From the sequence record KX130863: a stretch of 64,000 nucleotides of DNA. The stretch is one strand, 5' to 3'. The notes under the pieces were generated by a model. The model searched no databases and was not told where the DNA came from. It saw only the letters and a program-made list of their open reading frames with translations. The position numbers and the translations under genes are program-made. This document shows, in pieces, positions 6,382 through 64,000 of the stretch. Positions within the stretch are counted from its first letter, which is position 1; each line of letters starts with the position of its first letter. The DNA comes from Shigella phage SHSML-45.

Positions 6382-9300
6382 TTAAGAATTACCAAGTGAT
6401 TTCAGGGTGGTTCCATTCTCATTAAGAGCCTGTTCCACGGCATCTCTTAAAGCAGTGCTGTTATTCGATGCAAAATCTCTAAAGCTAGCAGCATCCATTG
6501 TGCTAATATTCAGAATGATTGGTCTTCCAGAGGTAGTCTTTGATCCATCGGAAAGCTGATCATTAGGTGTAGCTTTCATAGGAACCATAGGAGTAATTAC
6601 CTCGGTACCGTGCTCACCCATTTGATAACTAACTCCAGGGTACATCATACCGCCCTCAGCACGCGGAACAAATGAGTTGGCATTACCAATACCTTTATCA
6701 CCGCGTAGGTAGGATAGTTCTCCTGAACTAGCTTGCATAGATACATCAACATTTTTCTGTCGCTCACCTAGAGTTAAGTACTGAGTAGTATCTGCCCCAG
6801 AATCCGCAATAGAAGACATGCCAGATGCAGAAGATGCTTGAGCAAGAGCTAGGGCACCTGCCAAACCTGCTGCCACCATTAAAGGAATAGAGAACGGGTA
6901 TGGTACAGCTGTTGCTGCTTGCATTACTGCTACTGCAGTTTGGATGATGATCTGCTTCTTAGCTGCGTCTTGTTGAATCTTCAGCTTTTCAGCTTCCAAC
7001 TTCTTCAACTTAGCTTTAGATGCTTCAGATTTACCATCTCGTTTCTGTTCTGCTGCAATAGCCTGATCAATCGCACTAACTTGTTGGCTAGTACTATATT
7101 GAATCATCGAGGCTACAGTCTGCATACCTGCTGCGATCGTGGAAGTAGTATCTAGAGATCCCTGAGAGAACTGAATCATAGCATTAGTTAAGTTACCCAT
7201 ACTTTGTGCTACTGCAGTTGCTTCAGAATTTAGCTCAGATAGCTTAGAGATTGCCTGATCATAAGAAGCCATTCTATTTCCCATATCAGCAAAATCTTTG
7301 TCTTCCCCGGATAGACCAGTTGTAGGAGTATAAGTAGCTCCAACAGAAGATCCAACAGAAGCTTGCATCTCCGCATTTCTCTGTGCCCTTAAACCTGCTA
7401 GTTGTGCCCTAGTTTCAGCTATCTTTTTATTATATTCCGCTTGTGCTGCAGCATTACCTAATGTTTTCTGCTTTAAGTCTTCATATAATTTTAGCTGTTC
7501 CTGTAAGCGCTCCGCATTTCCCATTAATGGTTTAGTAGTAAATTGTCTTTGCTGTTCTTCCTCTCTACCAGCAGCCATTGAAGCAATCTGATCTTGGCGG
7601 AATTTCCAGATTTCACGTTCAATTTGGGCTTGAGCACGTCTAGACTGTTCCGCCTCTTTCTGTTTATCAGCTTGTTTTGTATACCATTCGTACTTCTCTT
7701 TTTCAACGGTCAATTCAAGATTTAACTGTGCTAGACGATACTGAGTATCTGTCATAGTACGGTTATTTAAGAGAGCTATCTCACGATCTACACCCAGGAT
7801 TTTATCTGTATAATCCTTAACCTTCTTCTGGGCCTCCATACCCTGATTAGTAAGCTTAAGTTTCTCCAGCTGAATTTTTTCAATTTCTTTCTCAACAGCT
7901 TTATTTCCCTGGTTTGTTTGAAGAACACGGCGTAAAGCAGCTTCTTGCTCTTCTAACTGTTGGAGTTCTAAACGCCTACCGGCTTCCTGTGCTTTTTCTT
8001 TATCCTTAGTTTGGTTATATACATCAGCTATCTTCTGTTGAACTGCTAACTGGTTCTTAGTCTCATTACCAGTTAGTTTAACGTACTCAGATAAGGCCTG
8101 AGACGCAGTTTTCATTTCGGACAGAGTGTTGTAGCCTAGATTAAGATTTTTAACGTACTCATCAGCACTCTTACCAGTACCTAGAGATAGAGATTCTATG
8201 TTTTTTATAGCATCTGCTAAAGTAGCACTAGTTTTAGCAGCAGTATCTGTATTCTGAGCAACGTTCTGTATATCATTAGCTAAGTCACTAGCAGTTTTCT
8301 TAGTCTGATTGTACGCTTTCTGCTGCTCAGTTAGTCCTTTTAATACAGTAGAGTTAAAATCGTATACAGCATCAGGATCAGTAGTATCTCTCTGTAGATT
8401 AATTTGCTTCTGAAACTCTGGACTAGCCTTTGCAGCAGCGGCTCCAGCAGCTTGATACGCTGATTTCCAAGCATTGAGATTCTCTGTAGAATCCTCTACT
8501 TCCTTACCAAGTCTAGTTACTTGTAGACCCATAGCTGCAGTTTCTGCTACAAATTGCTTATTGGCCTCCGAAGCACCTGCTGCTGCAAGACCAACAGGAA
8601 TACCTTCACCAACTTGACGTATAGCTAATTTTGTATAGAAATCTGCTTGTTCCATTCGTTTATCAAACTCAGATTTTAGCTTATTACGCTTATCAAGAGA
8701 TTCCTTATACATATCTAGAGCTTTATTATAGCCTTCTTCAGAAGCAGCTAAACTTAAAGCAACAGCACCAACGTTGGTAGGGTCTATCTGTCTATTAGTT
8801 TTTTCTTGAGCTCTAGCTGCTTCAGCAGATACAGAAGCCTGAGAAGTATAAAATACTGTGTTGATAGCATCAATTACTGGCCCTAAGTATTTAGCAGCAG
8901 CCTGCTGAATCTTTCTCAGTGCGGCATCAGCATTAGCGGCAAATTGCTCCCACGGAGTTGCACGTAAAACTTCATCTAAGTAACCAAAACGTTTAGTAGA
9001 CTCTGCTATAACAGCATTAGCATACGCCTGCTGTTTCTGGAAAGTAGTAAGACTATTAACGTTATAAGTTATACCCGTATTAGCAGCATTCAACTGTTTA
9101 ACATAGTCAGCATACGCGTCATTAAGACGGATAGTAACACCAAGTTCATCCAGAAGTTCGATTTCTTGTTTAGATACACCTTTGATTACACGGTTAAGTG
9201 CATCAGTCATATCTACACCAAGAACAGCAGCAGCACGACGAGCTACTAGACCAAATTTATTAAGTTGTTCAGCATCAAAACCGTATGCAGAAGCAGAGGA

Positions 9301-54264: not shown

Positions 54265-54546
54265 TTATTCATCTTCATCGTCCTCTTTACAGTCACGGCA
54301 TACATCATAATCATTGAAAGAATGTTCGTGAGCTTCACACCACCAAGAACAAGAATCGCACAAGAAAATTTCTGTTTTCTCTATTGACTGTCCAAGCAGT
54401 TCGTCTGCTTCATCTTCTGTGATTTTCAAACTACAAACATCAGCAACACGTTTAACAATCATTTTACCTGCTTCATGATAAGACATACAAGTCCCAACAA
54501 CATCATGCTCAAGTACATGAACAGCACAGTCTAAGTGAGTTTTCAT
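54265..54546 (-). CDS. Cys-rich small protein (93 aa)
   Basis: CDSCSWWCEAHEH...CRDCKE paired-cysteine motifs. Confidence 0.4.
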   Translation of the reverse strand: MKTHLDCAVHVLEHDVVGTCMSYHEAGKMIVKRVADVCSLKITEDEADELLGQSIEKTEIFLCDSCSWWCEAHEHSFNDYDVCRDCKEDDEDE

Positions 54547-54623
54547 TTCAAAGCCCTCTCTATCAATTTATATAAATATTATATCAATAAAGAGGCTCTT
54601 TAGCAAATGAATTATTTACGAAA

Positions 54624-54971
54624 TTAGTCGTAGCACCACCATAAACCACGCTTACGCATGTCATGGTCGCGATTATAATCATAATTTTCTGGATCTTTCA
54701 TCACGCGGTGGAGTTCTTGACGATTCCCTTGACGAACCATTTTATTAGAATGCCACTTAACATTCTTACTAATAGAATTCCAGTTATAACCATCCTTTTT
54801 CTCATTACGAATGGTTGCTTCCTTCATTTCTTTTTTGATGTCGTCCCAAGATTTGGCATAAGTAACACGAATGTAGTAGCCACTTGCTTTGAGGAAAGTA
54901 TATCCCTGGGTGTAATTAGCTTTAGACTTCCACCACTGATCACCAGTTTGTCTACGATAAGTACGGCTCAT
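54624..54971 (-). CDS. hypothetical basic protein (115 aa)
   Basis: ORF, Arg/Lys/Trp-rich. Confidence 0.4.
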   Translation of the reverse strand: MSRTYRRQTGDQWWKSKANYTQGYTFLKASGYYIRVTYAKSWDDIKKEMKEATIRNEKKDGYNWNSISKNVKWHSNKMVRQGNRQELHRVMKDPENYDYNRDHDMRKRGLWWCYD

Positions 54972-55092
54972 ATTACCTCCATTAAGTCTTTTAAATTAAC
55001 CTAATGTGGATGAATTTTATTATACATAAACTATTTTCCTGTACACAGAAAAACCCCAGACTACTTATTCAATAGCTGGGGTTTGTTATTAA

Positions 55093-55407
55093 TTACAGAT
55101 CGGGGCGTTCATCTTCGAAACAGCCTGAGCTAATTCCTTCTCCGAATCCTACAAAGCCATCAAATTCGTCATTTGAGATGCCCATAATCATTGCTTCCAT
55201 TTTCCTAATCTCCGAGATTTTCATGCCTGCTTTACTATTCTTATAGTACTTGCGAGGGTTCCCACACATCCAACAAGAACAGATGCAAGGAGTAGTAGTG
55301 ATAATACCTAACCGTTTAGGGCTTTCTTCATGTGGGAAGACTGTCCAATACTTTTTGCGATTGTTCTTCACACGTTGCCGGTGATGGCGTCTCAATGCTC
55401 GATCCAC
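55093..55407 (-). CDS. small zinc-ribbon protein (104 aa)
   Basis: CICSCWMCGNPRK motif. Confidence 0.4.
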   Translation of the reverse strand: MDRALRRHHRQRVKNNRKKYWTVFPHEESPKRLGIITTTPCICSCWMCGNPRKYYKNSKAGMKISEIRKMEAMIMGISNDEFDGFVGFGEGISSGCFEDERPDL

Positions 55408-55488
55408 ACATTTCTCCTAAAACTTGGGAGATAAATGGAGTTTGCTCGACTACCTTGCGTAGCTGGGAGAAATCGTATCCAAACCCCA

Positions 55489-55857
55489 TTACATCGCCTG
55501 AGTAAATGTACGACTAATAACGTCGTTCTGTTGTTCACGAGTCAGTGCGTTAAAACGTACAGCGTACCCTGAAACACGGATAGTTAATTGAGGGTATTTT
55601 TCAGGATGTTTCTGTGCATCCAAAAGCTGATCACGACTTAACACATTGACATTTAGGTGCTGACCTCCCTCGATTTGAGGAACTACTTCCACCTTGACTT
55701 CACGGAAGGATTCGGGGTCAAAATGTGGTGTGATACCTTCTAGATCCTCAACCAGAACTTTTTGTTTAAGTTCACCATCTTTAGAGTACAGTTGAATAAT
55801 CTGATTATCATGAACAAGATTAATTACGCCAGACTTAAGATTTTGATATGCTTTCAT
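55489..55857 (-). CDS. grcA: autonomous glycyl radical cofactor GrcA-like (about 122 aa)
   Basis: C-terminus [57 protein letters not shown] closely matches recalled E. coli GrcA/YfiD including the RVSGY glycyl radical motif; AGGAG RBS before ATG at 55857; the track ORF extends into the adjacent tRNA. Confidence 0.8.
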
Positions 55858-55870
55858 TAGCTCTCCTGTT

Positions 55871-55946
55871 TGGTAGTTAGTAGTGGATTTGAACCACTGT
55901 AGTCGCTCCGTATGAAGGAGGTGCATAACCACTCTGCCAACTAACT
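55871..55946 (-). tRNA. tRNA, anticodon CAU (Met or Ile2)
   Basis: Cloverleaf read manually: 7-bp acceptor stem, T-arm AGTGG-TTCAAAT-CCACT, anticodon loop TTCATAC, encoded CCA. Confidence 0.7.
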
Positions 55947-56042
55947 ATTATGTTTTACTAGGCTAAGTAAGTATTCTTTATACTCTTTAGACCAACTAGC
56001 TTTTTTAAACTTTCCTGGACGCATAGCCTTAATTCCTAGATT

Positions 56043-56119
56043 TGGTACTCCGGGAGGGATTTAAACCCCCGATCTCTCGGTTATCAGCCGAGTGCTTTAG
56101 ATCGCTAAGCTACCGAAGC
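56043..56119 (-). tRNA. tRNA-Ile (GAU)
   Basis: Anticodon arm CTCGG-CTGATAA-CCGAG; T-arm with TTTAAAT loop; acceptor stem with two G-U pairs; encoded CCA. Confidence 0.6.
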
Positions 56120-56134
56120 ATTAAAATATTTACA

Positions 56135-56425
56135 TCACACACTGTCTAAGTAAGAAGTATAGTGGAATTTAGTTTCTCCAGTATTATCTACTTCTACCTC
56201 AGTTCGTGGTACTTGACGAACCACACCATGAATCATCTTATATCGGATGCCTCTAGCTGGTTCATGATCTTTTGGAAATACTTGTTTAACCGTCACTACT
56301 TTATATTCTTCACGCGGTGTTAGCACTACTACTTGATCACCCTCTTTGATTTTCCAAGAAGATGGAAATTCATAGGTGTATCTTTGACCACCGGTAAGGA
56401 ATATAACAGAAAGATAACGTTTCAT
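56135..56425 (-). CDS. hypothetical protein (96 aa)
   Basis: ORF between tRNA genes. Confidence 0.4.
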   Translation of the reverse strand: MKRYLSVIFLTGGQRYTYEFPSSWKIKEGDQVVVLTPREEYKVVTVKQVFPKDHEPARGIRYKMIHGVVRQVPRTEVEVDNTGETKFHYTSYLDSV

Positions 56426-56502
56426 TTGGTTTCCCTCTCATTAATTTATATAAATATTATAGCAATAAATAAGAGAGAAAGCAAATGAGTTTTTCTTGAA
56501 AT

Positions 56503-56578
56503 TGGTAGCGGGTTCCAGTACTGCCCTGGACTTACTTAGCTTATGAGACTAAGAAGAACTCTATGCCTCCCACCCGCA
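56503..56578 (-). tRNA. tRNA-like, anticodon CAU, atypical T-loop
   Basis: 76 nt fitting standard cloverleaf positions: anticodon arm TTAGT-CTCATAA-GCTAA, T-stem TCCAG/CTGGA with non-canonical loop GGCAGTA, one acceptor mismatch, encoded CCA. Confidence 0.45.
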
Positions 56579-56831
56579 ATTGTTTGGTCATTCTAGGCAG
56601 GACTCGAACCTGCTATCACTTGTGCGGACTTACGAGAACCATTCTTTCACTCGAATCGAACGAGCTTCTGCCCTCGCCAAGTTGGTTTCCCCATCAACCA
56701 CGCTAGAATGTTAGATTGTTTTCAGTGCAAGAGTCCGAGTCTTGGACACGACCGCTTCGCAAGTACATAGGCAGCTTATCATGAGTCAGCACTTCCGAAT
56801 TGCTAGCTCCGTGTTCTGCACTGAAATTCTG

Positions 56832-57179
56832 TTAGTTTAATCGTAAAGTATTATCTACTTCACCATTAATTGTTCGGCATTCCTCTGGGATTGCCGGGGT
56901 GGCCTTGTATTCCCACCACTCAGCACCATCATATTCCCCACGTTCTAGCCAAGTTCCATCGGCAAACCATACATTACCATAAAGTAATTGTCCACCGTAT
57001 CCAGAATCATATTCAAAGTCTAGGTTATTAAGAAAATCCTCAATGTATTCTTCTGTATAACCTAAAGGTAATACCCAAACTTTTTTATCCCCATAATACC
57101 CGAATTCTATTTTAATACACTTAACTTTAGAATTGGTATTTTTTAAGGCGAGTAACAGCTCTTCTTTAGCATTACGCAT
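56832..57179 (-). CDS. hypothetical protein (115 aa)
   Basis: ORF between tRNA genes. Confidence 0.4.
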   Translation of the reverse strand: MRNAKEELLLALKNTNSKVKCIKIEFGYYGDKKVWVLPLGYTEEYIEDFLNNLDFEYDSGYGGQLLYGNVWFADGTWLERGEYDGAEWWEYKATPAIPEECRTINGEVDNTLRLN

Positions 57180-57204
57180 AGTATATTCTCATACTGAATT
57201 ATTT

Positions 57205-57281
57205 TGGCGCGACCGATGGGATTTGAACCCACATTCCCTCCCGTGACAGGGGAGTACCATTACCAAGCCAGCCCCGGTCGC
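57205..57281 (-). tRNA. tRNA-Asp (GUC)
   Basis: Acceptor GCGACCG/CGGTCGC, anticodon arm CTCCC-CTGTCAC-GGGAG, T-loop TTCAAAT, encoded CCA. Confidence 0.75.
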
Positions 57282-57578
57282 ATAATTTATTTACTCAGCT
57301 TTGAGTTTTTCAATAGCTGCATTAAGTTCTTTAAGAAACTCTTTTCGTACATTAAGACGATTGAGACTTACTAGTATATCATGTTTAAGTTCTTCGATGT
57401 ATTTCTTCTCAACTTCAATATTGTTGATAGTGCTATCACGATGAACTTCTAGCTGCGCAATCACATTCTTGGACATGCTTGTTTCCTCAGTTATTAATGA
57501 AAATGGTATCTGTGGCTGAATTCGATGTCAGCAATGATAGCTGGTTGGCTACCGGTTTACTTAACTCTACACAGAATT

Positions 57579-57661
57579 TGGCGGGCCGTGTAGGATTCGA
57601 ACCTACGTTGTCTTTCGACACGGATTAACAATCCGCCGCCAAACCGCTTGGCTAACGACCC
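57579..57661 (-). tRNA. tRNA with anticodon GUU (Asn) and unusually long variable region
   Basis: Anticodon arm GCGGA-TTGTTAA-TCCGT, T-arm GTAGG-TTCGAAT-CCTAC, encoded CCA; 83 nt with a 13-nt variable segment GTCGAAAGACAAC. Confidence 0.55.
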
Positions 57662-57813
57662 TAAATTTATATTGCTGACTAGGATTTTCACCTAGACGGA
57701 GTTAGCACCGTAGCGTGTAGCGGCATACCTCTCCAAACCGTGCCTCATCTTTCAATTACGGAGACAGTGTTCCTACGCGTGCCTGAATTGATTTAACAAT
57801 TCTTTCAGCAAAT

Positions 57814-57889
57814 TGGACGACCGCATGAGATTTGAACTCACATAAAAAGGATTTGCAATCCTTCGCCTAAGCCATTCAGCCAACGGTCG
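57814..57889 (-). tRNA. tRNA-Cys (GCA)
   Basis: Anticodon arm AAGGA-TTGCAAA-TCCTT, T-arm GTGAG-TTCAAAT-CTCAT, encoded CCA. Confidence 0.7.
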
Positions 57890-58406
57890 ATCTATCTTGT
57901 TTTTCGAGATCTTCAAATTCTAGATCATTGAAGTTCCCTAGAGTACGGGTGTAGAACCTATCTCCTGAGTCATAGCCTGATTTACCACAATCATACATTT
58001 TAAATTCACGAAGAGGTGTGAAAATGTGTTCAGAACCACAACACTTAAATCTAACTAATCGTTTCATTAGCTTCTCCAGTTCAATTTATGTAATTATTAT
58101 ATAGAACTTTTGGAAACTAAGCGACTACATTTTTTAAGAATTTGATGCCTTTCTTTTTCTTCTTATATTTCCACGTTAATGGATTTTGTCGATTATGAGC
58201 GCTTGAGATCTTTGTCTCGTCAAAGTTCTTCAATATCATGTAATCACAGGATAATTGTTCTAGTGGAATGTGATCACCGTCAAAAGCGTATACATAAGGC
58301 TGTTGACTAGCACGATAATGATAGACTTTGTTAATTCTACGTTTCAGCGACTTATCCGCGCAGTAAATAAAGAAGTTTTCAGGATGCATCAGCATCTACT
58401 TCAATT

Positions 58407-58490
58407 TGGTGCATCGTGATGGATTTGAACCACCAACCCCGAAGGGCACGGATTTACAGACCGCTGCAATAGACATTCTGCCAACGATGC
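58407..58490 (-). tRNA. tRNA, probable Tyr (GUA), class II with long variable arm
   Basis: Acceptor GCATCGT/ACGATGC, T-arm GGTGG-TTCAAAT-CCATC, anticodon loop CTGTAAA, ~15-nt variable arm; anticodon stem imperfect. Confidence 0.5.
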
Positions 58491-59366
58491 ACATTTAAAA
58501 GTATTCAAATACTAGTTTAAACACTTTTAAATATGTTTCCAAATTAGATAACTATTATACCAAGTTTTAAGGCACTGAGCAAGTCAAATTTCGAAGAACT
58601 TGCTCAGTGCTGTATTAGTTAGTCGAACTTAGGAGTGACAGTTAAGGAGAACGGAAGTTCAAAAACTTCTTCCCCCTCATTACTAACTGTAACTACACGA
58701 CCTTTAAGTTCAGACATTAAAATATCAATATCAGCTTTTGCATCTGGAGCCATGCCAGCTTCAACACATTTAGCTTTAACTTCCGGAAGGAGTTCTACAT
58801 CGTAGAAATAAAGCCATTCAATCTCACCTTCCCAGCCTTCCCAGGATTTACAGATTGCACTTTCAATACCAGTTGCTATAACACGATTTTGCATTCGTTA
58901 ACTCCTTCATCAATTTATATAACTATTATATCAGAAATTTAAAGTAAAAGGCAAGTACATTTTTAAAAATTCTATTCGGAGGAGCTAAACTCCAGATTCT
59001 TCGGCCAAGTCTAGACTAATAAGAGTTATAGCCATAATTGCCGCACCATGTTCTTTTTCCCCGGTGTTTTTAGCAGAGTCTATAATATCCTTAATCTGTT
59101 CGTAATAACTTTTTACTTCTTGTTCAATACCTGCCTCGGCTATCATGCCTTTAGTCATGATTCGTTGCATAGTAATTTCACGGTTAGCCATGATGTTTCT
59201 CCAGCTTCATTTTTAATAGTTTACAAATGAAGTCAACGTCTTCATCTGTGCCTAGATCTCTATCTTCAAGAGTTGCCTTGAAGTTTTTCGTTAGTTCCAT
59301 AAGAACTACTTCTCTAGAACGACGTGTTGGCGGGGGTGGATGTCTATACATCTTATTTCCTTAATT

Positions 59367-59441
59367 TGGTGGGTCGGAGGAGAATCTAACTCCTACTCGT
59401 TAGCTTATGAGGCCACCGCTTTAACTTTAAGCTACCGACCC
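59367..59441 (-). tRNA. tRNA, anticodon CAU (Met or Ile2)
   Basis: Acceptor GGGTCGG/CCGACCC, D-arm GCTT-AAAGTTA-AAGC, anticodon loop CTCATAA, T-arm AGGAG-TTAGATT-CTCCT, encoded CCA. Confidence 0.55.
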
Positions 59442-59447
59442 TATGTT

Positions 59448-59536
59448 TGGCGGAAGAAGGGGGAATCGAACCCACAAGGCTATATTTCAAACCGACAGAT
59501 TAGCAATCTGCTGCAATACCGTTATGCTATTCTTCC
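59448..59536 (-). tRNA. tRNA-Ser (GCU), class II
   Basis: Acceptor GGAAGAA/TTCTTCC, anticodon arm GCAGA-TTGCTAA-TCTGT, long variable arm, T-loop TTCGATT, encoded CCA; 89 nt. Confidence 0.65.
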
Positions 59537-59557
59537 GAATTTATAAGATATATTATA

Positions 59558-60076
59558 TTAGAAATTTAGCTTCATGGCAAGAAAATTTTTCAAGTTTTCG
59601 GTAGACATCTCATCCACATCTATAGGAGAAACAAACCCATTTAATTGTCTAGCAAACTTTTCGCCAGCAGGATCATTATCCCCAACAGCTACCAATTTAA
59701 AAGGTAGTAATTTCAATTGCTTTAATAGCGGTTTTCCTGGAGAAGAACCCAACATTGCTAGAGCAGGATACCCAGCATTATGTAATGCTACAGCCTTAAA
59801 TACAGATTCAGCAATTAATACTACTTTTTCATCCCCATTGAGAGTTTCTAGTCCCCATACACACTGTGTAGTAGAATAAGTAAAATATCTAGCTTCAAAG
59901 GGGCACTTACCATGACCTTTTGGAGCAGAAGGATTATAAGTCTGATAGCCTCTCAACATTCCAGAGAAGTCATACAATGGGACTGTTAGCCATCCTTCTG
60001 GGCTTAACCAGCAGTGATATTTATCTGTATCAAACCCTCTAGATAAGAGATGTTCTGTTAGTTCATCAATAGTCAT
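59558..60076 (-). CDS. Toprim-domain protein (about 172 aa from internal start)
   Basis: Toprim-like signature: conserved Glu in VVLIAESVFKAVAL and DxD in LVAVGDNDPAGEKFARQL; GAGAGG RBS before ATG at 60076. Confidence 0.5.
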   Translation of the reverse strand: MTIDELTEHLLSRGFDTDKYHCWLSPEGWLTVPLYDFSGMLRGYQTYNPSAPKGHGKCPFEARYFTYSTTQCVWGLETLNGDEKVVLIAESVFKAVALHNAGYPALAMLGSSPGKPLLKQLKLLPFKLVAVGDNDPAGEKFARQLNGFVSPIDVDEMSTENLKNFLAMKLNF

Positions 60077-60361
60077 ACTAGATTCCTCTCTCAAATTTAT
60101 AAATATATTATGCAGAGAATTTAGCATTCAAGCAATTGAATTTTTTAACTTTTTAGAGGAAAATCACAGGATGCTTAAGGGTAGCAGGTAAGTGGGTAGA
60201 CCCCAAAATTGTTATCCCCACTTGATTTTCAATGTGATATAGTGTAAAGTATTTGTCATAGCTGAGTGACCAAAGAGACACACTTATCCTCTACCTTAAA
60301 ACAGAAAAGCCCTGCGCTCTCCAGGGAACACAGGGCTTACTTCGAATATTACGTGTGGGAA

Positions 60362-61309
60362 TTACTTGTTACGCATATCCATAATCATCTGGCCATCGTA
60401 ACCAGTGCCAACTACTGTTTGAGGTACACCGCCTTGATATTTCTGAGCACGAATCATTTCAACTTCTAGTTGTTTCCAGCGAATCATCTCAGGAGTAATA
60501 GTACGTTGCAGAGCGGCGTTAGCTTCGGCTTCCTTCTTAGCTGCGTACAGTTTAGCATCTGCATCACGTTCGTTTGCAATAGCTTGGTTGTTACGAGCTT
60601 CACGATCTGCTTCTGCTTGTTTAACCTTCTGCTGTGCTTCTTGTTCAACACGAGCCAACTCAGCTTTCGCAGCATTAACTTGTTCCTCACGAACTTTGGT
60701 ATTCTGTACCTGTTCCACGATTACAGGCGGCAAAGTAATATCCTGAAGGAACACTTGCTTAACTGTGTAACCATAAGGGCGTGCATACTCTTCAACTTCC
60801 TGTTGAATTGCGGTTTGTAATTGAGCCTGGATTTTAGCATCAAACAAATCTTGTGCTTTAGGAACAGACTTACCGAACTCACGAATAGTGGACAGTAATT
60901 TTTCAGTTACATATTTGTCTAATGCTTGATCCTGGGTACCTGCGTTAATACGGTTAATCGGTGCCTTAGAACCATCAAACTGCAACATAACAGTCAGGTC
61001 AACAGTGGATTTAAACTTATCCTGACTAGGAACCTGAAGTTTATCTAATTTTACAGCAATGTCTTTTGTACTAAAAGTATCGAAAGATGCAAATGGGTTT
61101 ACAAGATGAAAACCAGGTAATACAGGATTAGGGTCTACTTTACCCAGAAATGTTTGGGTTTTAACCGTACCATCAGAAACAATAGTATATGAATTAAAAG
61201 CTAGGATTAAACCTGCTAAACCAACTACAGCACCAATACCCCAACGTTTAATAGTGCGAATTACTTTTTGCTCAGAAGTCAGTTCTTTCATATTTTTAGT
61301 ATTAAACAT
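60362..61309 (-). CDS. SPFH/band-7 (stomatin/prohibitin-like) membrane protein (315 aa)
   Basis: N-terminal TM anchor, central SPFH-like region, C-terminal Ala/Glu/Gln-rich coiled coil. Confidence 0.6.
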   Translation of the reverse strand: MFNTKNMKELTSEQKVIRTIKRWGIGAVVGLAGLILAFNSYTIVSDGTVKTQTFLGKVDPNPVLPGFHLVNPFASFDTFSTKDIAVKLDKLQVPSQDKFKSTVDLTVMLQFDGSKAPINRINAGTQDQALDKYVTEKLLSTIREFGKSVPKAQDLFDAKIQAQLQTAIQQEVEEYARPYGYTVKQVFLQDITLPPVIVEQVQNTKVREEQVNAAKAELARVEQEAQQKVKQAEADREARNNQAIANERDADAKLYAAKKEAEANAALQRTITPEMIRWKQLEVEMIRAQKYQGGVPQTVVGTGYDGQMIMDMRNK

Positions 61310-61547
61310 ATATTTCCTTATTATTTAGAAGAGTTAGCTACTACAGTTACTTTAGTTGCAGAAATAAACAGGCTAGCATCCACAGCAAATTCAGGAGCTT
61401 TGATATCTCCATTATGAAATATGACTATACCGGAGACTACTTCAAATGCTAGTGCTGTAACATCGGTGGTATTTACTTGTGAATGTTCACCTACTACTTT
61501 TACTATATATCGTGTTTTCACTTTATTTTCCTAGCAGTTAATAAAAT

Positions 61548-61622
61548 TGGCCGAGGTGACAGGATTCGAACCTGCATAAAGGAATTTAGAAGACTCCTGC
61601 CTCTCCCTTAGACTACACCCCG
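61548..61622 (-). tRNA. tRNA-Arg (UCU)
   Basis: Acceptor CGGGGTG/CACCTCG, anticodon arm GGAGT-CTTCTAA-ATTCC, T-arm GCAGG-TTCGAAT-CCTGT, encoded CCA. Confidence 0.6.
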
Positions 61623-62123
61623 TTTAAGTATTTTTAAGAACTCTCGTAAAAACTCTTAAAAATACAGACGATACCGGGAGAGTCATAAGTCTCACTCATT
61701 AAGTATTTCAAGACAAAATACAGTAACGTCTATTATTTTCCAGTTTAAGTCAAGGTGACTTAGTGGTTATGTCCTGCGGTATACTGAGGACTCGGTTAGG
61801 TTAGGGTCATGACTCCCCACCTTTTGCTGCTACTCAACAGGAGTTATCGCGAATTACCTGTGCTATTGTGCACCATTAGTGACATCTCTCATGTCAGCAT
61901 TTCCCACTTTGTGGATAGCTTGAAAAACTACTCCGATATGGAGAAAGAACTTCACTATCCTAGAATACCTTCTAAAGTTCTTCTTTAGCCTGGACATAGT
62001 TAAATCGTAATAAAACTATTCAGCAGACTGGTTGGTTAGTCTGGAACCAACTACCGCGTGGTTTAGGCAGTGCGCAACTAACCTCGGAAGCTTTTACGTT
62101 AAAAGCACCAGTTATCCAGTTCT

Positions 62124-62195
62124 TACCGACCGTAGGATTCGAACCTACATCTTCCACCAGTTACGGCTTGATAATACCGTTTATACTAGATCGGC
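62124..62195 (-). tRNA. tRNA-like sequence, anticodon undetermined, no encoded CCA
   Basis: Canonical T-arm GTAGG-TTCGAAT-CCTAC and pairable acceptor GCCGATC/GGTCGGT, but no convincing anticodon stem by manual folding. Confidence 0.4.
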
Positions 62196-62308
62196 AGTGT
62201 TACTACATAAGTGATTTCCACACCCCACTATTTATAAATTAGAGAAGAATTACTCTCTAATTTATGAATATATTATACAGAATTTATAAGCATTTAGCAA
62301 ATGAATTT

Positions 62309-62743
62309 TTAGAAAAACTCGCTAGCAATCAAGGCGGCTGTTTTACCATCATAACGCCCCGGAAACTCTGCCTTAATAGTTTTCATTAGGAGAGCTTTGG
62401 TAATACCTGGGTTTAGCTTAACCAATTCTGCAAAATATTTACGAATTTCAGTTTCAGTTAGCTGTTGTAGTGCATAATCATGCTCTAAACGCGCTAAAAG
62501 ATCTAAGTATTCAGCATCAGGAGTATAGTCAACATTCGATTTTTCAGCGGCAATCCGTGTATTCTCAATTGCTTTGAGTTGTGATTTCAACCAGTTAGTA
62601 AACTCCAGCTCAGTTACGCAATCTTTATCAATACGTTGCAGGTCTCCTAGAACCGTACTTAGATGCTTAACTGATACAGCGTCACCACTTTTGCGAGCAG
62701 CTTCAATCAACTCTCGCAGTACATAAAGCATGTTCATGCCCAT
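62309..62743 (-). CDS. hypothetical protein (144 aa)
   Basis: ORF. Confidence 0.45.
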   Translation of the reverse strand: MGMNMLYVLRELIEAARKSGDAVSVKHLSTVLGDLQRIDKDCVTELEFTNWLKSQLKAIENTRIAAEKSNVDYTPDAEYLDLLARLEHDYALQQLTETEIRKYFAELVKLNPGITKALLMKTIKAEFPGRYDGKTAALIASEFF

Positions 62744-62981
62744 TATTTCATCCCCAATGCTTGGTTAAAAGATTGTTCTGTCATAACTACTGAGACTTTG
62801 GCGAAATCAAACTTTTTAGGGTTCGTAGTGATCTCAGCAACGTTGGAAGTTTTAACAGTTTTCGTAGTACGAATACCGCGAGTGCTAACACCAATGACGA
62901 TCAAGTTTTTCATATTTCGCTTCCTCTCATTAATTTATGAAAGTATTATACAGAAGTTTAAGTATTTAAGCAAATAAATTT

Positions 62982-63431
62982 TTAAGTTTTAGTGACAGCA
63001 GGCTTATAAAATGTATGTCCCTTAATCTTAGTTGTTTTCTTAAACTTCTTTGTCCAGTATGGTTTATCTTTACCACTATGGAAGTATAAAGCTCCATGTG
63101 TAGGATCTTGTGGTAAATCAACGTAGTATATCACTCTAGCTAAATTCTTGGCAGTTTGCCAAGCCTCATCGGTTTTATCAACTTTTGGTCTCTTAGATAC
63201 CCAAGAGAACTGGTTAGACTGATATACTACTTTACAGTAGGAATCTGGAAATTTGCCGGAGTTTACACGGTTTTTAGTAACCTGTGCAACCGCCATCATT
63301 CCCTTTATGCCCTCACCACGACTCTCGAAATAGATATTTTTAGCAATGCAATCTATTTCTTTTGCATCGTGCGATGCTTGACTACTAAAGCTGAAGGTAA
63401 GGGCAGCTACTAAAAGCAAAGCTGCCTTCAT
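62982..63431 (-). CDS. secreted cell wall hydrolase, SleB-like (149 aa)
   Basis: N-terminal signal peptide (MKAALLLVAALTFSFSSQA); motif NIYFESRGEG...MAVAQVTKNRV typical of SleB-type hydrolases. Confidence 0.55.
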   Translation of the reverse strand: MKAALLLVAALTFSFSSQASHDAKEIDCIAKNIYFESRGEGIKGMMAVAQVTKNRVNSGKFPDSYCKVVYQSNQFSWVSKRPKVDKTDEAWQTAKNLARVIYYVDLPQDPTHGALYFHSGKDKPYWTKKFKKTTKIKGHTFYKPAVTKT

Positions 63432-63443
63432 TCTTTTTACTCC

Positions 63444-63875
63444 TTAAAATAGATCATATTCTAATCTATTGGGATTTTCTCGGTATCCATAAGACGTAAG
63501 AGTACCCCTCATATACTCTGCGTCAACAGGATTAGATGTTACTAGAACCACTTTTAGTGGTCTTTGACCTAAAAATAGTATATGATCTAATAAGTCTTTT
63601 CCTTGTACCTCTGGATCTCCTAAATCTGAGTCCATAAATAAATAGGATCCTGTGAAACTAAATATATCTGATAGCTCCAGCGCACCTATAACTGTACGAC
63701 AAATAATGGACATTTCAGGTAGATCTCTAACATCGTCTATTAGAATATTGGTCTGCTTCCCAATTTCTGCATTACATAAACCATTTACTAGTTTTTCTCT
63801 TTCCCCTTTAGCTTGTTCGAAAGTGGTGAAGCCAGGAGATACGAAAAACTTTCCACCTAATGTAATGCTATACAC
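63444..63875 (-). CDS. hypothetical protein (143 aa)
   Basis: ORF. Confidence 0.45.
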   Translation of the reverse strand: MYSITLGGKFFVSPGFTTFEQAKGEREKLVNGLCNAEIGKQTNILIDDVRDLPEMSIICRTVIGALELSDIFSFTGSYLFMDSDLGDPEVQGKDLLDHILFLGQRPLKVVLVTSNPVDAEYMRGTLTSYGYRENPNRLEYDLF

Positions 63876-64000
63876 AAAACCCTCGGGGAGGAGTTCTACA
63901 CCTACGGTTTTATTAGTATTAATCCTATTTAACTTAAAATTTGTCTCTCTTAGATTAATAATTCTGTTATCCCACGGTATAGTATTTATATGGTCGATCA

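What the first reader, a model, noticed from the sequence alone, without database searches (positions are those of the whole stretch)
55871..62195. tRNA cluster with three CAU tRNAs and several atypical members
At least eleven minus-strand tRNA-like genes were folded by hand. Three carry CAU anticodons (55871, 56503, 59367), consistent with separate initiator, elongator and Ile2 species. Two have non-canonical T-loops (GGCAGTA, TTAGATT). The GUU tRNA at 57579 has a 13-nt variable segment, unusual for Asn. The 62124 element has a perfect T-arm but no clear anticodon stem. Further T-arm-like hairpins at about 57504-57576 and 57672-57811 could not be resolved.
Basis: seen in the sequence. Interest (0 to 1): 0.5.

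Follow-up and report, generated by a model that had tools for sequence, protein, structure and literature searches.

The report
T5-like phage tRNA-rich region
This is the known tRNA gene cluster of a T5-like Salmonella phage, and one of its three CAU tRNAs belongs to a virus-only family of initiator-type tRNAs with a rewired core that standard tRNA finders and all public annotations I checked miss.

Summary
The window is 99.8% identical to Salmonella phage Shivani, a T5-like phage. The stretch 55871-62258 is its tRNA-rich region.

- **Called tRNAs.** ARAGORN and Rfam both call the same ten minus-strand tRNAs.
- **The eleventh, 56503-56578 (CAU).** Both tools miss it, but it is real. It sits where T5 has tRNA-fMet. 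It belongs to a family of 26 distinct sequences from phages and metagenomes. The cloverleaf shows strong covariation, and every acceptor-stem formylation determinant is present. The core is altered: G8..C14, no GG in the D-loop, T-loop KGCRRUA.
- **The three CAU genes.** They fit elongator Met (55871), initiator type (56503) and Ile2 type (59367), as T5 is annotated.
- **Asn(GUU).** Its 13-nt extra arm is conserved and covaries across unrelated phages.
- **Non-decoding elements.** 62124, 57504-57576 and 57672-57811 are tRNA-shaped RNAs. Two match T5 "stable RNAs of unknown function" (RNAX and RNA3), as does a fourth element, RNA2 at 56585-56710. The third is not annotated in the records I inspected.

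The cluster itself is already known. The rewired initiator-type family appears undescribed. No expression or charging data exist, so the functional roles are inferred.

The parts
55871..55946 (-). tRNA-Met(CAU), elongator type; encoded CCA; A1:U72, A73; canonical T-loop UUCAAAU
   Evidence: ARAGORN. RF00005 51.5 bits. Near-identical to T5 tRNAM(CAU) T5t01.
56043..56119 (-). tRNA-Ile(GAU); T-loop UUUAAAU (U56) with D-loop AGCGAUCUA (G18 A19), which suggests A19:U56 replaces the G19:C56 elbow pair
   Evidence: T5 T5t02 has the same loops.
56503..56578 (-). Atypical initiator-type tRNA(CAU), 76 nt with encoded CCA. Features: U1*U72 mismatch, G2:C71, C3:G70, G4:C69, A73, A11:U24, G8..C14, D-loop CAUAGAGU without GG, T-loop GGCAGUA.
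   Evidence: Missed by ARAGORN and Rfam. Occupies the position of T5 tRNAfM. Family covariation. CM R1 88 bits. Family statistics.
56585..56710 (-). tRNA-like stable RNA, homolog of T5 'RNA2'. It has an acceptor stem, D-arm, T-arm and an anticodon-type stem. That stem encloses about 55 nt holding a second T-loop-like hairpin (GCUCG UUCGAUU CGAGU).
   Evidence: 97.5% identical to T5 at the RNA2 misc_RNA. RNAalifold on six Demerecviridae gives 17 of 35 pairs with compensatory changes.
57205..57281 (-). tRNA-Asp(GUC), G73, encoded CCA
57504..57576 (-). D-armless tRNA-like RNA, homolog of T5 'RNA3'. It has a 6-bp acceptor stem, a 6-bp stem with a 6-nt loop CAACCA, and a T-like arm with an 8-nt loop.
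   Evidence: T5 misc_RNA rna3 maps here. Fold z-score -2.7. Two double compensatory changes in the middle stem in phage UTK0009. Present at >=90% identity in 352 of 353 matching phage records; no row listed shows a tRNA annotated on the element itself, only the neighbouring tRNA-Asn or tRNA-Cys.
57579..57661 (-). tRNA-Asn(GUU) with a 13-nt variable arm (GUC-GAAA-GAC), G73, encoded CCA. Its anticodon arm GCGGA-UUGUUAA-UCCGU keeps U36AAUCC41.
   Evidence: The same architecture, with a covarying arm, occurs in CC31 (T4-like), Proteus PM135 and SB9; T5 and DevonBitter carry a short-arm Asn instead.
57672..57811 (-). About 140-nt tRNA-shaped RNA, not annotated in any of the five records I inspected and absent from T5. 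A 7-bp terminal stem (UUGCUGA/UCAGCAA) closes it. Inside are a D-like hairpin, a large conserved middle domain, and a T-arm-like hairpin (CUAGG UGAAAAU CCUAG) next to the 3' strand.
   Evidence: 6 of 40 pairs are compensatory across four phages, including Klebsiella DevonBitter and Yersinia phiR2-01. 184 phage records cover >=80% of the 251-nt query that contains it plus tRNA-Asn. No Rfam match.
57814..57889 (-). tRNA-Cys(GCA), U73, encoded CCA
58407..58490 (-). tRNA-Tyr(GUA), 84 nt, A73. This allele is unlike the T5 tRNA-Tyr.
   Evidence: At least five different Tyr alleles occur among the T5-like loci examined.
59367..59441 (-). tRNA(CAU), Ile2 type by position. It has G1:C72 and A73. Its T-loop is UUAGAUU (A56) and its D-loop AAAGUUA (G18 U19), which suggests U19:A56 replaces G19:C56.
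   Evidence: It occupies the slot of T5 tRNAI2(CAU) but is a different allele. Found in 37 T5-likes, in Klebsiella Sugarlandvirus-type phages (e.g. phage Sugarland) and in Cronobacter GAP32, annotated tRNA-Met or tRNA-Ile.
59448..59536 (-). tRNA-Ser(GCU), type II, encoded CCA
61548..61622 (-). tRNA-Arg(UCU), encoded CCA
61623..62258 (-). Homolog of T5 'RNAX' (stable RNA of unknown function). It is the non-coding transcript from the promoter to tRNA-Arg, with a hairpin leader, a tRNA-like domain and a conserved multi-helix core (about 61734-61961).
   Evidence: T5 misc_RNA rnaX maps here. Alignments of nine Demerecviridae show invariant motifs and compensatory hairpins. No Rfam family at E<=10. 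Found only in T5-size viral contigs.
62124..62195 (-). tRNA-like domain of RNAX. It has a 7-bp acceptor stem, a D-arm with GG and a canonical T-arm. In place of the anticodon arm is a 3-4-bp stem with a 6-nt loop (GUAACU). No CCA is encoded.
   Evidence: RF00005 36.8 bits with 18 nt unaligned. ARAGORN forces 'Ser(ACT)'. Pair counts on eight phages: 87.5% paired, 5 compensatory pairs. Annotated as pseudo-tRNA, tRNA-OTHER, tRNA-Sec or tRNA-Undet in other records.
62272..62300 (-). Sigma-70-type promoter (TTGCTA-17-TATAAT) driving RNAX and tRNA-Arg; matches T5 promoter P16-17
59552..59580 (-). Sigma-70-type promoter (TTGCCA-17-TATAAT) in front of the tRNA-Ser(GCU)/tRNA(CAU) pair; matches T5 P15b

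Best explanation
**What it is.** The stretch is the tRNA-rich region of a T5-like phage, Salmonella phage Shivani. Short transcription units start at strong sigma-70-type early promoters. They carry eleven tRNA genes, all with encoded CCA, interleaved with tiny ORFs. They also carry four tRNA-shaped RNAs that keep the acceptor/T-arm half but lack a 7-nt anticodon loop.

**How it most likely works (inferred).** Host RNase P and 3'-end nucleases release the tRNAs, and host synthetases charge them.
- 55871 is an elongator tRNA-Met.
- 59367 is an elongator-type CAU tRNA. Host TilS most likely converts it to lysidine so that it reads AUA. AUA makes up 25% of Ile codons in this phage.
- 56503 is an initiator-type tRNA. 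MetRS would charge it through CAU and A73. The host formyltransferase would formylate it, because it has every acceptor-stem determinant. The 1:72 mismatch would keep it off EF-Tu.
- In 56503 the D-loop/T-loop core is rewired and the anticodon stem is not GGG:CCC. I read this as escape from host enzymes or defence nucleases that recognise the host initiator tRNA.
- The reduced set kept by this phage (Tyr, Asn, Asp, Arg-UCU, initiator type, Ile2 type and others) serves two purposes. It decodes codons the phage overuses, and it replaces host tRNAs that defence tRNases destroy.
- The tRNA-shaped RNAs are conserved, structured products of the same transcripts. Most likely they act as processing handles or as decoys for proteins that bind the top half of tRNA.
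For: **Shown here**
- Identity: 99.8% to phage Shivani, and hundreds of T5-like relatives.
- Ten tRNAs by two independent methods.
- Synteny with the curated T5 record, which lists tRNAM, tRNAfM and tRNAI2 plus the stable RNAs RNA2, RNA3 and RNAX at the homologous places.
- 56503 family cloverleaf: 95.2% of cells paired against 33-48% for slid controls; 13 of 21 pairs with compensatory changes.
- 56503 family features in 26 distinct members:
  - 1:72 is never G-C or C-G (15 mismatches, 11 weak pairs)
  - G2:C71 in 25
  - C3:G70 in 26
  - G4:C69 in 24
  - A73 in 22
  - A11:U24 in 26
- Members sit inside dense tRNA arrays of unrelated phages.
- 54/58 covary as U..A in 14 and G..G in 10.
- The Asn extra arm covaries in four phage lineages.
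- RNA2, RNA3, the 57672-57811 element and the RNAX tRNA-like domain all show compensatory changes.
- Promoters lie in front of the units.
- Codon use in the window's ORFs: AUA 16.0 and AGA 13.2 per thousand.

**From the literature**
- The formyltransferase determinants are the unpaired 1-72 pair plus A73, G2-C71, C3-G70 and G4-C69, together with R11:Y24. Asn identity is the anticodon plus G73 (PMC9976931).
- T5 codes Met- and fMet-specific tRNAs (Chen et al. 1975, cited as reference 49 in PMC4810235; title only, paper not held).
- The tRNA-rich region is dispensable and counters retron defence through tRNA-Tyr (PMC11555353).
- T5 Lys, Thr and Asn variants neutralise PARIS (PMC12409363).
Against: - No expression, processing, charging, formylation or modification data exist for this phage. 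Every functional step is inferred.
- The 56503 family lacks the three consecutive G:C pairs of the anticodon stem that, from established knowledge, bacterial initiators use for P-site selection (29:41 is A-U in 17 of 26).
- The family also lacks U54 (in the window's copy and 10 other members), U55 (in every member with an intact T-loop) and the D-loop GG.
- Single-sequence folding of 56503 is not better than shuffles (z -1.1) and prefers an alternative D/anticodon pairing.
- For 59367, the acceptor pairs 4:69 and 5:68 are U-A and C-G, against C-G and C-G in E. coli tRNA-Ile2 as I recall them. TilS recognition is therefore uncertain.
- The long-arm Asn keeps the exact E. coli AriB cleavage context UAAUCC. 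It is therefore not obviously a PARIS-resistant variant.
- The decoy or processing role of the tRNA-shaped RNAs has no direct support.
Confidence: 0.75

Rival explanations
1. The 56503 element and its family are tRNA mimics that are never used in translation. They would be decoys or sponges that bind and occupy a host factor or a defence nuclease specific for initiator tRNA.
For: - RF00005 misses the window's copy and five of six further members tested, with only a marginal misaligned hit for the sixth.
- U55 and the D-loop GG are absent, and in the window's subtype U54 and A58 as well.
- The anticodon stem lacks the initiator GGG:CCC.
- The same region carries four other tRNA-shaped RNAs that cannot decode.
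- PMC12409363 raises the idea that overexpressed viral tRNAs may inhibit AriB directly.
Against: - The anticodon loop is a perfect 7-nt YUCAUAM in all 26 members.
- The full set of aminoacylation and formylation determinants is conserved. A pure decoy would not need all of them.
- CCA is encoded in 17 of 26 members.
- In the T5-likes it replaces the canonical-looking tRNAfM allele at the same locus rather than adding to it.
Confidence: 0.2
2. 56503 in this phage is a decaying pseudogene of the T5 tRNA-fMet gene, left behind after the deletion that removed tRNA-Pro, T5.066 and RNAIV.
For: ARAGORN and Rfam do not detect it. Shivani has lost about half of the T5 tRNA set. The element is unannotated in every T5-like record listed.
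Against: - The same allele is 95-100% conserved in 55 phage records, including phages that still have the neighbouring tRNA-Pro.
- It differs from the T5 allele by coordinated changes that keep all four stems.
- Distant relatives in Klebsiella and Aeromonas phages and about 20 metagenomic contigs keep the same odd D-arm and T-loop with full stem covariation.
Confidence: 0.04
3. The isotype roles are assigned the other way round. 59367 would be a plain second tRNA-Met, or 56503 would be the lysidine-modified Ile2 species, and the phage would have no initiator tRNA of its own.
For: - Most public records call 59367 tRNA-Met.
- Its 4:69 pair is U-A, as in E. coli elongator tRNA-Met (own knowledge).
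- PMC10264068 reports that phages generally avoid encoding tRNA-fMet.
Against: - 59367 has a strong G1:C72 pair, which is elongator-type. 56503 has a 1:72 mismatch, which elongators avoid.
- T5 curators label the homologous slots I2 and fM.
- Several records annotate the 59367 allele as tRNA-Ile.
- AUA is heavily used by the phage, and no UAU-anticodon tRNA is present.
Confidence: 0.15
4. The four tRNA-shaped RNAs (56585-56710, 57504-57576, 57672-57811 and the 62124 domain of RNAX) are only relics of dead tRNA genes. They would survive because RNase P and RNase E still need them as spacers, and would have no function of their own.
For: Each keeps an acceptor stem and a T-like arm next to real tRNAs. 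CCA ends are not conserved in RNA2. T5 curators list their functions as unknown.
Against: - The internal, non-tRNA parts are the most conserved. Examples are the RNA2 insert motifs, the 100% conserved middle of the 57672-57811 element, and the invariant anticodon-region sequence of the 62124 domain.
- The RNAX core of about 230 nt is conserved, with compensatory hairpins, across genera.
Confidence: 0.3

Closest known systems
tRNA gene region of bacteriophage T5 (RefSeq NC_005859: 25 tRNA features plus misc_RNAs RNAI, RNAIII, RNAIV, RNA1, RNA2, RNA2H, RNA3 and RNAX); the 'tRNA-rich region' (TRR) of T5-like phages in PMC11555353
   Same: - Gene order is the same.
- The flanking genes are the same: the GrcA-like protein, the Toprim protein, the band-7 lipoprotein and the YqeY-like protein.
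- Promoters, RNA2, RNA3 and RNAX are shared.
- Seven tRNAs are near-identical.
   Different: - Shivani lacks about 6 kb, and with it 14 of the T5 tRNAs, RNAI, RNAIII, RNAIV, RNA1, RNA2H and the homing endonucleases.
- It carries other alleles of the initiator-type CAU, the Ile2-type CAU, Asn and Tyr.
- It has the 57672-57811 RNA where T5 has ORF T5.069.
Bacterial initiator tRNA-fMet (E. coli metZWV/metY type)
   Same: It shares the CAU anticodon and A73. It shares an unpaired or weak 1:72 pair. It shares G2:C71, C3:G70, G4:C69 and A11:U24 (determinants as listed in PMC9976931).
   Different: - No three consecutive G:C pairs in the anticodon stem.
- G8..C14 instead of U8..A14.
- D-loop CAnAGAGY without G18G19.
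- T-loop KGCRRUA instead of UUCAAAU, so no U55, and no U54 in 11 of 25 members with an intact T-loop.
- Practically confined to viral sequences.
tRNA-Ile2 (CAU read as lysidine-AU; E. coli ileX)
   Same: 59367 has a CAU anticodon and an elongator-type G1:C72 with A73. It sits in the slot T5 curators call tRNAI2, and some records annotate it as tRNA-Ile.
   Different: Acceptor pairs 4:69 and 5:68 are U-A and C-G. The elbow pair is U19:A56. The allele is unrelated in sequence to the T5 I2 gene.
Type II (long variable arm) bacterial tRNAs, especially phage tRNA-Tyr
   Same: The Asn gene has a base-paired extra arm capped by a GNRA loop. Parts of its body resemble the neighbouring phage tRNA-Tyr: acceptor xxxUCGU/ACGAxxx and the anticodon stem GCGG-/UCCGU.
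   Different: The anticodon is GUU and the discriminator is G73, which are the two Asn identity elements (PMC9976931). Type II tRNAs in bacteria are otherwise Leu, Ser, Tyr and Sec (established knowledge).
Large or tRNA-mimicking non-coding RNAs found next to tRNA genes in phages and bacteria (GOLLD, ROOL, YrlA; tRNA-like processing handles such as mascRNA)
   Same: The context is the same: structured non-coding RNAs of 70-640 nt embedded in a phage tRNA cluster. Several contain an acceptor/T-arm module that RNase P should recognise.
   Different: No Rfam family matches any of them at E<=10. The topology differs from YrlA, because here the 5' and 3' ends form the acceptor stem. The resemblance is by context and recalled from memory, not tested further.

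Membership tests
tRNA (Rfam RF00005 / ARAGORN cloverleaf), ten called genes | Score at or above the family's gathering threshold, and a cloverleaf with a 7-nt anticodon loop | tested here: met
   Nine genes score 46.7-64.7 bits against a gathering score of 29, all with 7-nt anticodon loops and encoded CCA. The tenth, 62124, is tested separately below.
tRNA (RF00005), element 56503-56578 | Detection by the general tRNA covariance model | tested here: not met
   No RF00005 hit even at E<=10 on 9.5 kb. Five of six further family members are also missed, and the sixth gets only a marginal, misaligned hit.
tRNA, element 56503-56578 | Four-stem cloverleaf maintained by compensatory substitutions, with a 7-nt anticodon loop | tested here: met
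   95.2% of cells are paired, 13 of 21 pairs have changes on both sides, and slid controls give 33-48%. The loop is CUCAUAA or UUCAUAC in all 26 members.
Bacterial initiator tRNA (formylatable tRNA-fMet) | Unpaired or weak 1:72 pair | tested here: met
   The window has U1*U72. In the family there are 15 mismatches, 11 weak pairs (U-A, A-U, U-G) and no G-C or C-G among 26 members.
Bacterial initiator tRNA (formylatable tRNA-fMet) | Minor formylation determinants A73, G2:C71, C3:G70 and G4:C69, and R11:Y24 | tested here: met
   All are present in the window's copy. Family counts are 22, 25, 26, 24 and 26 of 26. The rule is taken from PMC9976931.
Bacterial initiator tRNA (formylatable tRNA-fMet) | Three consecutive G:C pairs, 29:41, 30:40 and 31:39 (established knowledge) | tested here: not met
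   The window has A29:U41, G30:C40 and U31:G39. In the family, 29:41 is A-U in 17 of 26 and only 30:40 is mostly G-C (20 of 26). The T5 tRNAfM allele also lacks them.
Bacterial initiator tRNA (formylatable tRNA-fMet) | Charged with Met, formylated, and used at the P site | not testable with these tools
   This needs biochemistry. Only the title of Chen et al. 1975 (T5 codes Met- and fMet-specific tRNAs) could be seen, through reference 49 of PMC4810235.
tRNA-Ile2 (lysidine), gene 59367 | CAU anticodon on an elongator body (paired 1:72) | tested here: met
   G1:C72, A73 and loop CUCAUAA.
tRNA-Ile2 (lysidine), gene 59367 | TilS acceptor-stem determinants C4:G69 and C5:G68 (recalled from the E. 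coli literature) | tested here: inconclusive
   The gene has U4:A69 and C5:G68, and the T5 I2 allele has the same pairs. Public records are split between tRNA-Met and tRNA-Ile.
tRNA-Asn, gene 57579 | Anticodon GUU plus discriminator G73 (PMC9976931) | tested here: met
   Both are present here and in the CC31, PM135 and SB9 homologs.
Type II tRNA, gene 57579 | Base-paired variable arm of more than 10 nt | tested here: met
   The region is 13 nt. The helix reads GUC/GAC here, and GUCA/UGAC, GUUC/GAAC and AUCC/GGAU in relatives, all with GNRA loops. It is predicted in the MFE fold.
Decoding tRNA, element 62124-62195 | 5-bp anticodon stem with a 7-nt loop, and a CCA end | tested here: not met
   It reaches the RF00005 threshold (36.8 bits) on its other arms only. 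A 3-4-bp stem with a 6-nt loop is conserved in eight phages, and no CCA is encoded.
T5 stable RNAs RNA2, RNA3 and RNAX | Sequence homology and the same position relative to flanking genes as the T5 misc_RNA features | tested here: met
   Window 56587-57603 matches T5 at 97.5% across RNA2 and RNA3. Window 61495-62600 matches at 94-96% across RNAX.
GOLLD, ROOL, YrlA, tmRNA and other curated RNA families | Match to the Rfam covariance model | tested here: not met
   In 54500-64000 at E<=10, only tRNA hits and weak hits far below every gathering score (none to GOLLD, ROOL, YrlA or tmRNA) were found.

The most novel reading that the evidence does not exclude
The 56503 gene represents a virus-restricted class of initiator tRNAs. 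Its tertiary core has been rebuilt: G8..C14, a D-loop without GG, G55, and 54/58 switching between U..A and G..G. Its anticodon stem is no longer GGG:CCC. On this reading, phages use it as a replacement initiator that host or defence nucleases aimed at tRNA-fMet (for example VapC-type toxins) cannot recognise. It would be the first counter-defence acting on translation initiation, and it has gone unseen because tRNA finders skip it. The neighbouring tRNA-shaped RNAs (RNA2, RNA3, the 57672-57811 RNA and RNAX) would then be further parts of the same RNA-based anti-defence toolkit.
Probability: 0.25. Interest if true: 0.7.

Novelty: new variant of a known kind. Interest (0 to 1): 0.42.

Why it matters
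**The cluster itself is ordinary.** T5-like phages have been known to carry it for fifty years. It is now studied as a counter-measure to tRNA-cleaving defences such as PARIS, retron-Eco7, PrrC and Schlafen.

**What the check adds.**
- One member is an initiator-type tRNA whose whole family is invisible to the Rfam tRNA model and half invisible to ARAGORN.
- It is unannotated in every phage record I inspected. Surveys that conclude "phages avoid encoding tRNA-fMet" (PMC10264068) may therefore be undercounting.
- The family gives a natural experiment on how far the tRNA elbow and core can be rebuilt while the acceptor-stem identity set is kept.
- The region also holds four conserved tRNA-shaped RNAs without a known function, one of them unannotated in the records I inspected. 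These are cheap targets for deletion and pull-down experiments in a tractable phage.

Tried and rejected
- **Known RNA classes.** I looked for a curated family behind the unresolved stretches (tmRNA, YrlA, GOLLD, ROOL, tRNA-Sec, group I intron). Rfam at E<=10 gave only tRNA hits and weak hits far below threshold.
- **Chimeric tRNA-Tyr.** A BLAST piece joined the 3' end of tRNA-Tyr to the T5 tRNA-Phe, which suggested a Phe/Tyr deletion chimera. The shared part is only the last few bases and the downstream flank, and the Tyr acceptor stem is perfectly paired. Rejected.
- **Alternative fold of 56503.** The MFE fold pairs GAGGC with G30-C34. Position 31 varies to G or A in six members while 31:39 stays paired (25 of 26), so the cloverleaf is better supported.
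- **RNA2 as an intron-containing tRNA.** The 55-nt insert is far too short for a group I intron, and its sequence is more conserved than the tRNA-like arms. Not pursued further.
- **Bulk collection of T5-like loci.** Searching IMG/VR through the neighbouring YqeY-like protein gave only 7 loci. Diversity had to come from GenBank phage records instead.
- **Bacterial genomes.** The pattern scan returned 4 hits, and only one (a 2-kb MAG contig) is a true family member.
- **Original 1975 paper.** The paper on T5 Met and fMet tRNAs is not held, and two literature searches for 'stable RNA' in T5 found nothing relevant.
- **Neighbouring small ORFs.** A Pfam scan gave only DUF7337 and a Toprim domain. 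Nothing was tRNA-related.

Full report
**Where the window comes from**

The stretch 55700-62400 is 99.8% identical over its full length to Salmonella phage Shivani (Tequintavirus, Demerecviridae). It matches 510 phage records, nearly all T5-like. Most relatives spread the same sequence over 11-13 kb, so Shivani carries a shortened version of the region. This region is the 'tRNA-rich region' of T5-like phages. It is about 8 kb, is dispensable in the laboratory, and has been shown to counter retron defence through its tRNA-Tyr and an ORF (PMC11555353). T5 tRNA-Lys, Thr and Asn variants neutralise the PARIS nuclease AriB (PMC12409363).

**Check of the observation**

ARAGORN finds ten tRNA genes in the whole 64-kb window. 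All are on the minus strand between 55871 and 62196. Rfam's tRNA model finds the same ten at 36.8-64.7 bits, with E from 9e-12 to 4.4e-4. Nine are ordinary in outline and carry an encoded CCA.

- The T-loop of the CAU gene at 59367 is UUAGAUU.
- The Asn gene has a 13-nt variable segment.
- At 62124 the acceptor, D and T arms align to the model, while 18 nt replace the anticodon arm.

A third unusual T-loop was overlooked: UUUAAAU in tRNA-Ile(GAU) at 56043. In both 56043 (U56, with G18 A19 in the D-loop) and 59367 (A56, with G18 U19), the change at 56 is matched by a complementary base at 19. The elbow pair therefore appears to be kept by covariation. This reading comes from the sequence and assumes standard numbering.

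Rfam does not report it either, even at E<=10 with permissive filters.

**Comparison with T5**

The curated T5 RefSeq record annotates three CAU genes at homologous positions: tRNAM(CAU), tRNAfM(CAU, 'initiator tRNA fMet') and tRNAI2(CAU). It also lists eight misc_RNAs described as stable or tRNA-like RNAs of unknown function. Mapping T5 onto the window gives:

| Window | T5 feature |
|---|---|
| 55871 | tRNAM |
| 56503 | the tRNAfM slot |
| 59367 | the tRNAI2 slot |
| 56586-56710 | RNA2 |
| 57504-57576 | RNA3 |
| 61623-62258 | RNAX |

Another T5 record marks the 62124 element as a pseudo-tRNA. Shivani lacks about 6 kb that in T5 hold fourteen further tRNAs, five stable RNAs and the homing endonucleases.

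**The element at 56503**

*Cloverleaf in the window.* It reads:

U-GCGGGU / GG / GAGG-CAUAGAGU-UCUU / C / UUAGU-CUCAUAA-GCUAA / GUAAG / UCCAG-GGCAGUA-CUGGA / ACCCGC-U / A-CCA

*Relation to the T5 allele.* It shares the acceptor stem and anticodon loop with the T5 tRNAfM. The D-arm, variable region and T-arm are entirely different, and the stem changes are compensatory.

*Distribution among T5-likes.*
- The T5-type allele occurs in 367 phage records at >=95% identity, where it is annotated tRNA-Met.
- The Shivani-type allele occurs in 55 records at >=95% identity.
- None of the T5-like records listed annotates it. That includes RefSeq records such as smaug, whose tRNA list skips the interval.

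*Distant relatives.* They exist in a Klebsiella myovirus and in Aeromonas phages. Pattern scans of IMG/VR and JGI metagenomes brought in about twenty more. In several of these contigs (L008, L009, L013, L015, L103) the member sits inside a dense tRNA array whose other members Rfam does find.

*Covariation.* On ten diverse members, the cloverleaf I specified pairs 95.2% of cells. Partners slid by 1-3 columns pair 33-48%. Thirteen of 21 pairs have changes on both sides, and no shuffle reached the observed covariation score.

*Covariance model.* A model built from these ten sequences scores the window's copy at 88 bits. It scores the T5-type allele at 48 bits and the 59367 gene at only 20 bits.

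*Features over 26 distinct members.*

| Feature | Count |
|---|---|
| Anticodon loop | CUCAUAA 21, UUCAUAC 5 |
| 1:72 | 15 mismatches (UU, CA, UC, AC, AA, CC); 11 weak pairs; no G-C or C-G |
| G2:C71 | 25 |
| C3:G70 | 26 |
| G4:C69 | 24 |
| A73 | 22 |
| A11:U24 | 26 |

*Match to initiator identity.* These are exactly the identity elements of methionyl-tRNA formyltransferase, plus the R11:Y24 pair that marks bacterial initiators (PMC9976931). T5 has long been reported to code both Met- and fMet-specific tRNAs (title of Chen et al. 1975, reference 49 in PMC4810235; the paper itself is not held).

*What is not initiator-like.*
- The anticodon stem is A-U at 29:41 in 17 of 26. Only 30:40 is mostly G-C.
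- The core is altered. G8 with C14 occurs in all 26, and the D-loop is CAnAGAGY without GG.
- The T-loop is KGCRRUA, with 54/58 as U..A (14) or G..G (10).

*Detection and host range.*
- RF00005 misses five of six further members tested. The sixth gets only a marginal, misaligned hit.
- ARAGORN finds 13 of 26, and only 1 of the 12 with G or A at position 54.
- Among one genome for each of 185,579 bacterial and archaeal species, the pattern found a single true member, on a 2-kb MAG contig.
- The family is therefore essentially viral.

*Conclusion.* I conclude that 56503 is a real gene for an initiator-type tRNA with a rebuilt core. That it is charged, formylated and used in initiation is inference. 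That the rebuilding serves escape from nucleases aimed at the host initiator tRNA is speculation. One published survey states that phages generally avoid encoding tRNA-fMet (PMC10264068). A class of genes that finders skip bears on that statement.

**The other two CAU genes**

55871 is nearly identical to T5 tRNAM. It has A1:U72, A73 and a canonical T-loop.

59367 is an elongator-type tRNA (G1:C72) in the tRNAI2 slot, but it is unrelated in sequence to the T5 allele. The same allele occurs in 37 T5-likes, in Klebsiella Sugarlandvirus-type phages and in Cronobacter phage GAP32. It is annotated tRNA-Met in some records and tRNA-Ile in others.

The phage ORFs in the window use AUA for 25% of Ile codons (16.0 per thousand) and AGA for 30.5% of Arg codons. 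As I recall, both codons are rare in enterobacteria. This fits the retention of an Ile2-type tRNA and of tRNA-Arg(UCU). The acceptor pairs that I recall as TilS determinants are only half matched (U4:A69, C5:G68), so the Ile2 assignment stays probable rather than shown.

**The Asn gene**

The long-arm architecture is not a local accident.
- Enterobacter phage CC31 (T4-like), Proteus phage PM135 and Salmonella phage SB9 carry homologs.
- Their extra arm reads GUCA/UGAC, GUUC/GAAC and AUCC/GGAU, against GUC/GAC here. Each arm is capped by a GNRA loop.
- All keep GUU and G73, the two Asn identity elements (PMC9976931).
- T5 itself and Klebsiella phage DevonBitter have a different, short-arm Asn.
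- Parts of the body resemble the neighbouring phage tRNA-Tyr.

AriB of PARIS cleaves E. coli tRNA-Asn at U36AAUC|C41 (PMC12409363). The window's Asn keeps UAAUCC, whereas by my reading of the sequence the T5 allele has UAAGUU. If the long-arm allele resists AriB, it must do so in another way.

**tRNA-shaped RNAs**

*RNA2 (56585-56710).* It has a 7-8-bp acceptor stem, a D-arm, a T-arm and an anticodon-type stem. That stem encloses about 55 nt, including a second T-loop-like hairpin. Across six Demerecviridae from four host genera, 17 of 35 predicted pairs show compensatory changes.

*RNA3 (57504-57576).* It lacks a D-arm and has a 6-nt and an 8-nt loop. Its middle stem carries two double compensatory changes in phage UTK0009.

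*57672-57811.* T5 has ORF T5.069 at this position. The stretch folds into an RNA closed by a 7-bp stem, with a D-like hairpin and a T-like hairpin in the tRNA positions and a large invariant middle. Six pairs covary among four phages, including ones from Klebsiella and Yersinia. None of the five records I inspected annotates it.

*The 62124 element.* It is the 5' domain of the RNAX transcript. In eight phages it is always 72 nt, with a 3-4-bp stem and a 6-nt loop in place of the anticodon arm and no CCA. 87.5% of cells are paired and 5 pairs are compensatory. Downstream lie a conserved hairpin and a core of about 230 nt with invariant motifs and compensatory hairpins. It is found only in T5-size viral contigs.

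*What they share.* No Rfam family matches any of these. All keep the acceptor/T-arm half that RNase P and other tRNA enzymes read, and all lack a decodable anticodon loop. A role as processing handles or as decoys is my inference.

**Verdict**

The cluster is a known feature of a sequenced phage, so most of the finding is ordinary. The part that goes beyond current annotation has two pieces. One is the rewired initiator-type tRNA family, which the standard detectors miss. The other is the 57672-57811 RNA, which no inspected record annotates.

Noticed in passing
window 55871-61622; L001 (NC_028754.1): The RefSeq record of phage Shivani annotates all nine of its tRNA genes on the strand opposite to the one on which ARAGORN and Rfam find them. 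The coordinates are the same and only the strand is wrong. The near-identical record PV654516 has them on the correct strand.
   Followed up: partly
window 56712-56832 (-): Between the stop of the 115-aa ORF and RNA2 lies about 110 nt of non-coding sequence closed by a 10-bp stem (UUUCAGUGCA...UGCACUGAAA). It is 97.5% conserved in T5 and unannotated there. The fold is not better than shuffles (z -1.2), so its status is open.
   Followed up: partly
L089, L091, L092 (about 60-250 nt downstream of position 8432): In some T5-like phages the loop of the RNAX leader hairpin carries an extra conserved insert of about 150 nt (AGCGAGCCGAUUACGCUGA...GAGGCGUCUGAAACCUCUCC). It is absent from the window. 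It may be another structured RNA module.
   Followed up: no
L008:488-595 and L008:784-897 (Klebsiella phage vB_KpM_FBKp34): Next to the tRNA array that holds a family member there is a weak Y-RNA-like (YrlA) match: 39.6 bits against a gathering score of 69. The record also annotates a 114-nt 'tRNA-Asp', and Rfam gives tRNA 47.7 bits over 111 nt. That is a tRNA with an insertion of about 40 nt.
   Followed up: no
window 58407-58490; L003, L087, L088, L089, L135: tRNA-Tyr is hypervariable among T5-like phages. At least five alleles of 81-91 nt, with different acceptor stems and variable arms, occupy the same slot. This fits the published targeting of tRNA-Tyr by retron-Eco7/PtuAB.
   Followed up: partly
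L103:542-618 and 728-803; L015:528-616: One metagenomic contig carries a canonical-looking initiator-type CAU tRNA (U1*U72, T-loop UUCGAAU) 110 nt upstream of a rewired family member. Another contig has a family member with a 19-nt base-paired variable arm.
   Followed up: no
window 57579-57661 versus L003:6953-7030: The long-arm Asn keeps the E. coli AriB (PARIS) cleavage context U36AAUCC41. The T5 short-arm Asn has UAAGUU and a poorly paired anticodon stem, with 3 of 5 pairs by my reading.
   Followed up: partly
window 55871-61622: The reduced tRNA set kept by this phage is rich in species I recall as known targets of tRNases. Tyr, Asn and Asp are colicin E5 targets, Tyr also of PtuAB, and Asn also of AriB. 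Arg is a colicin D target, and initiator tRNA a VapC target. It is also rich in readers of codons the phage overuses: AUA at 16.0 and AGA at 13.2 per thousand.
   Followed up: partly
window 57291-57476, 59558-60076, 62309-62743 (-): Small ORFs are interleaved with the tRNAs. They include a DUF7337 protein (E 5e-30) and a 172-aa Toprim-domain protein annotated 'DNA primase'. The 144-aa protein upstream of RNAX is annotated 'tRNA amidotransferase' or YqeY-like in relatives, but had no Pfam match here.
   Followed up: partly
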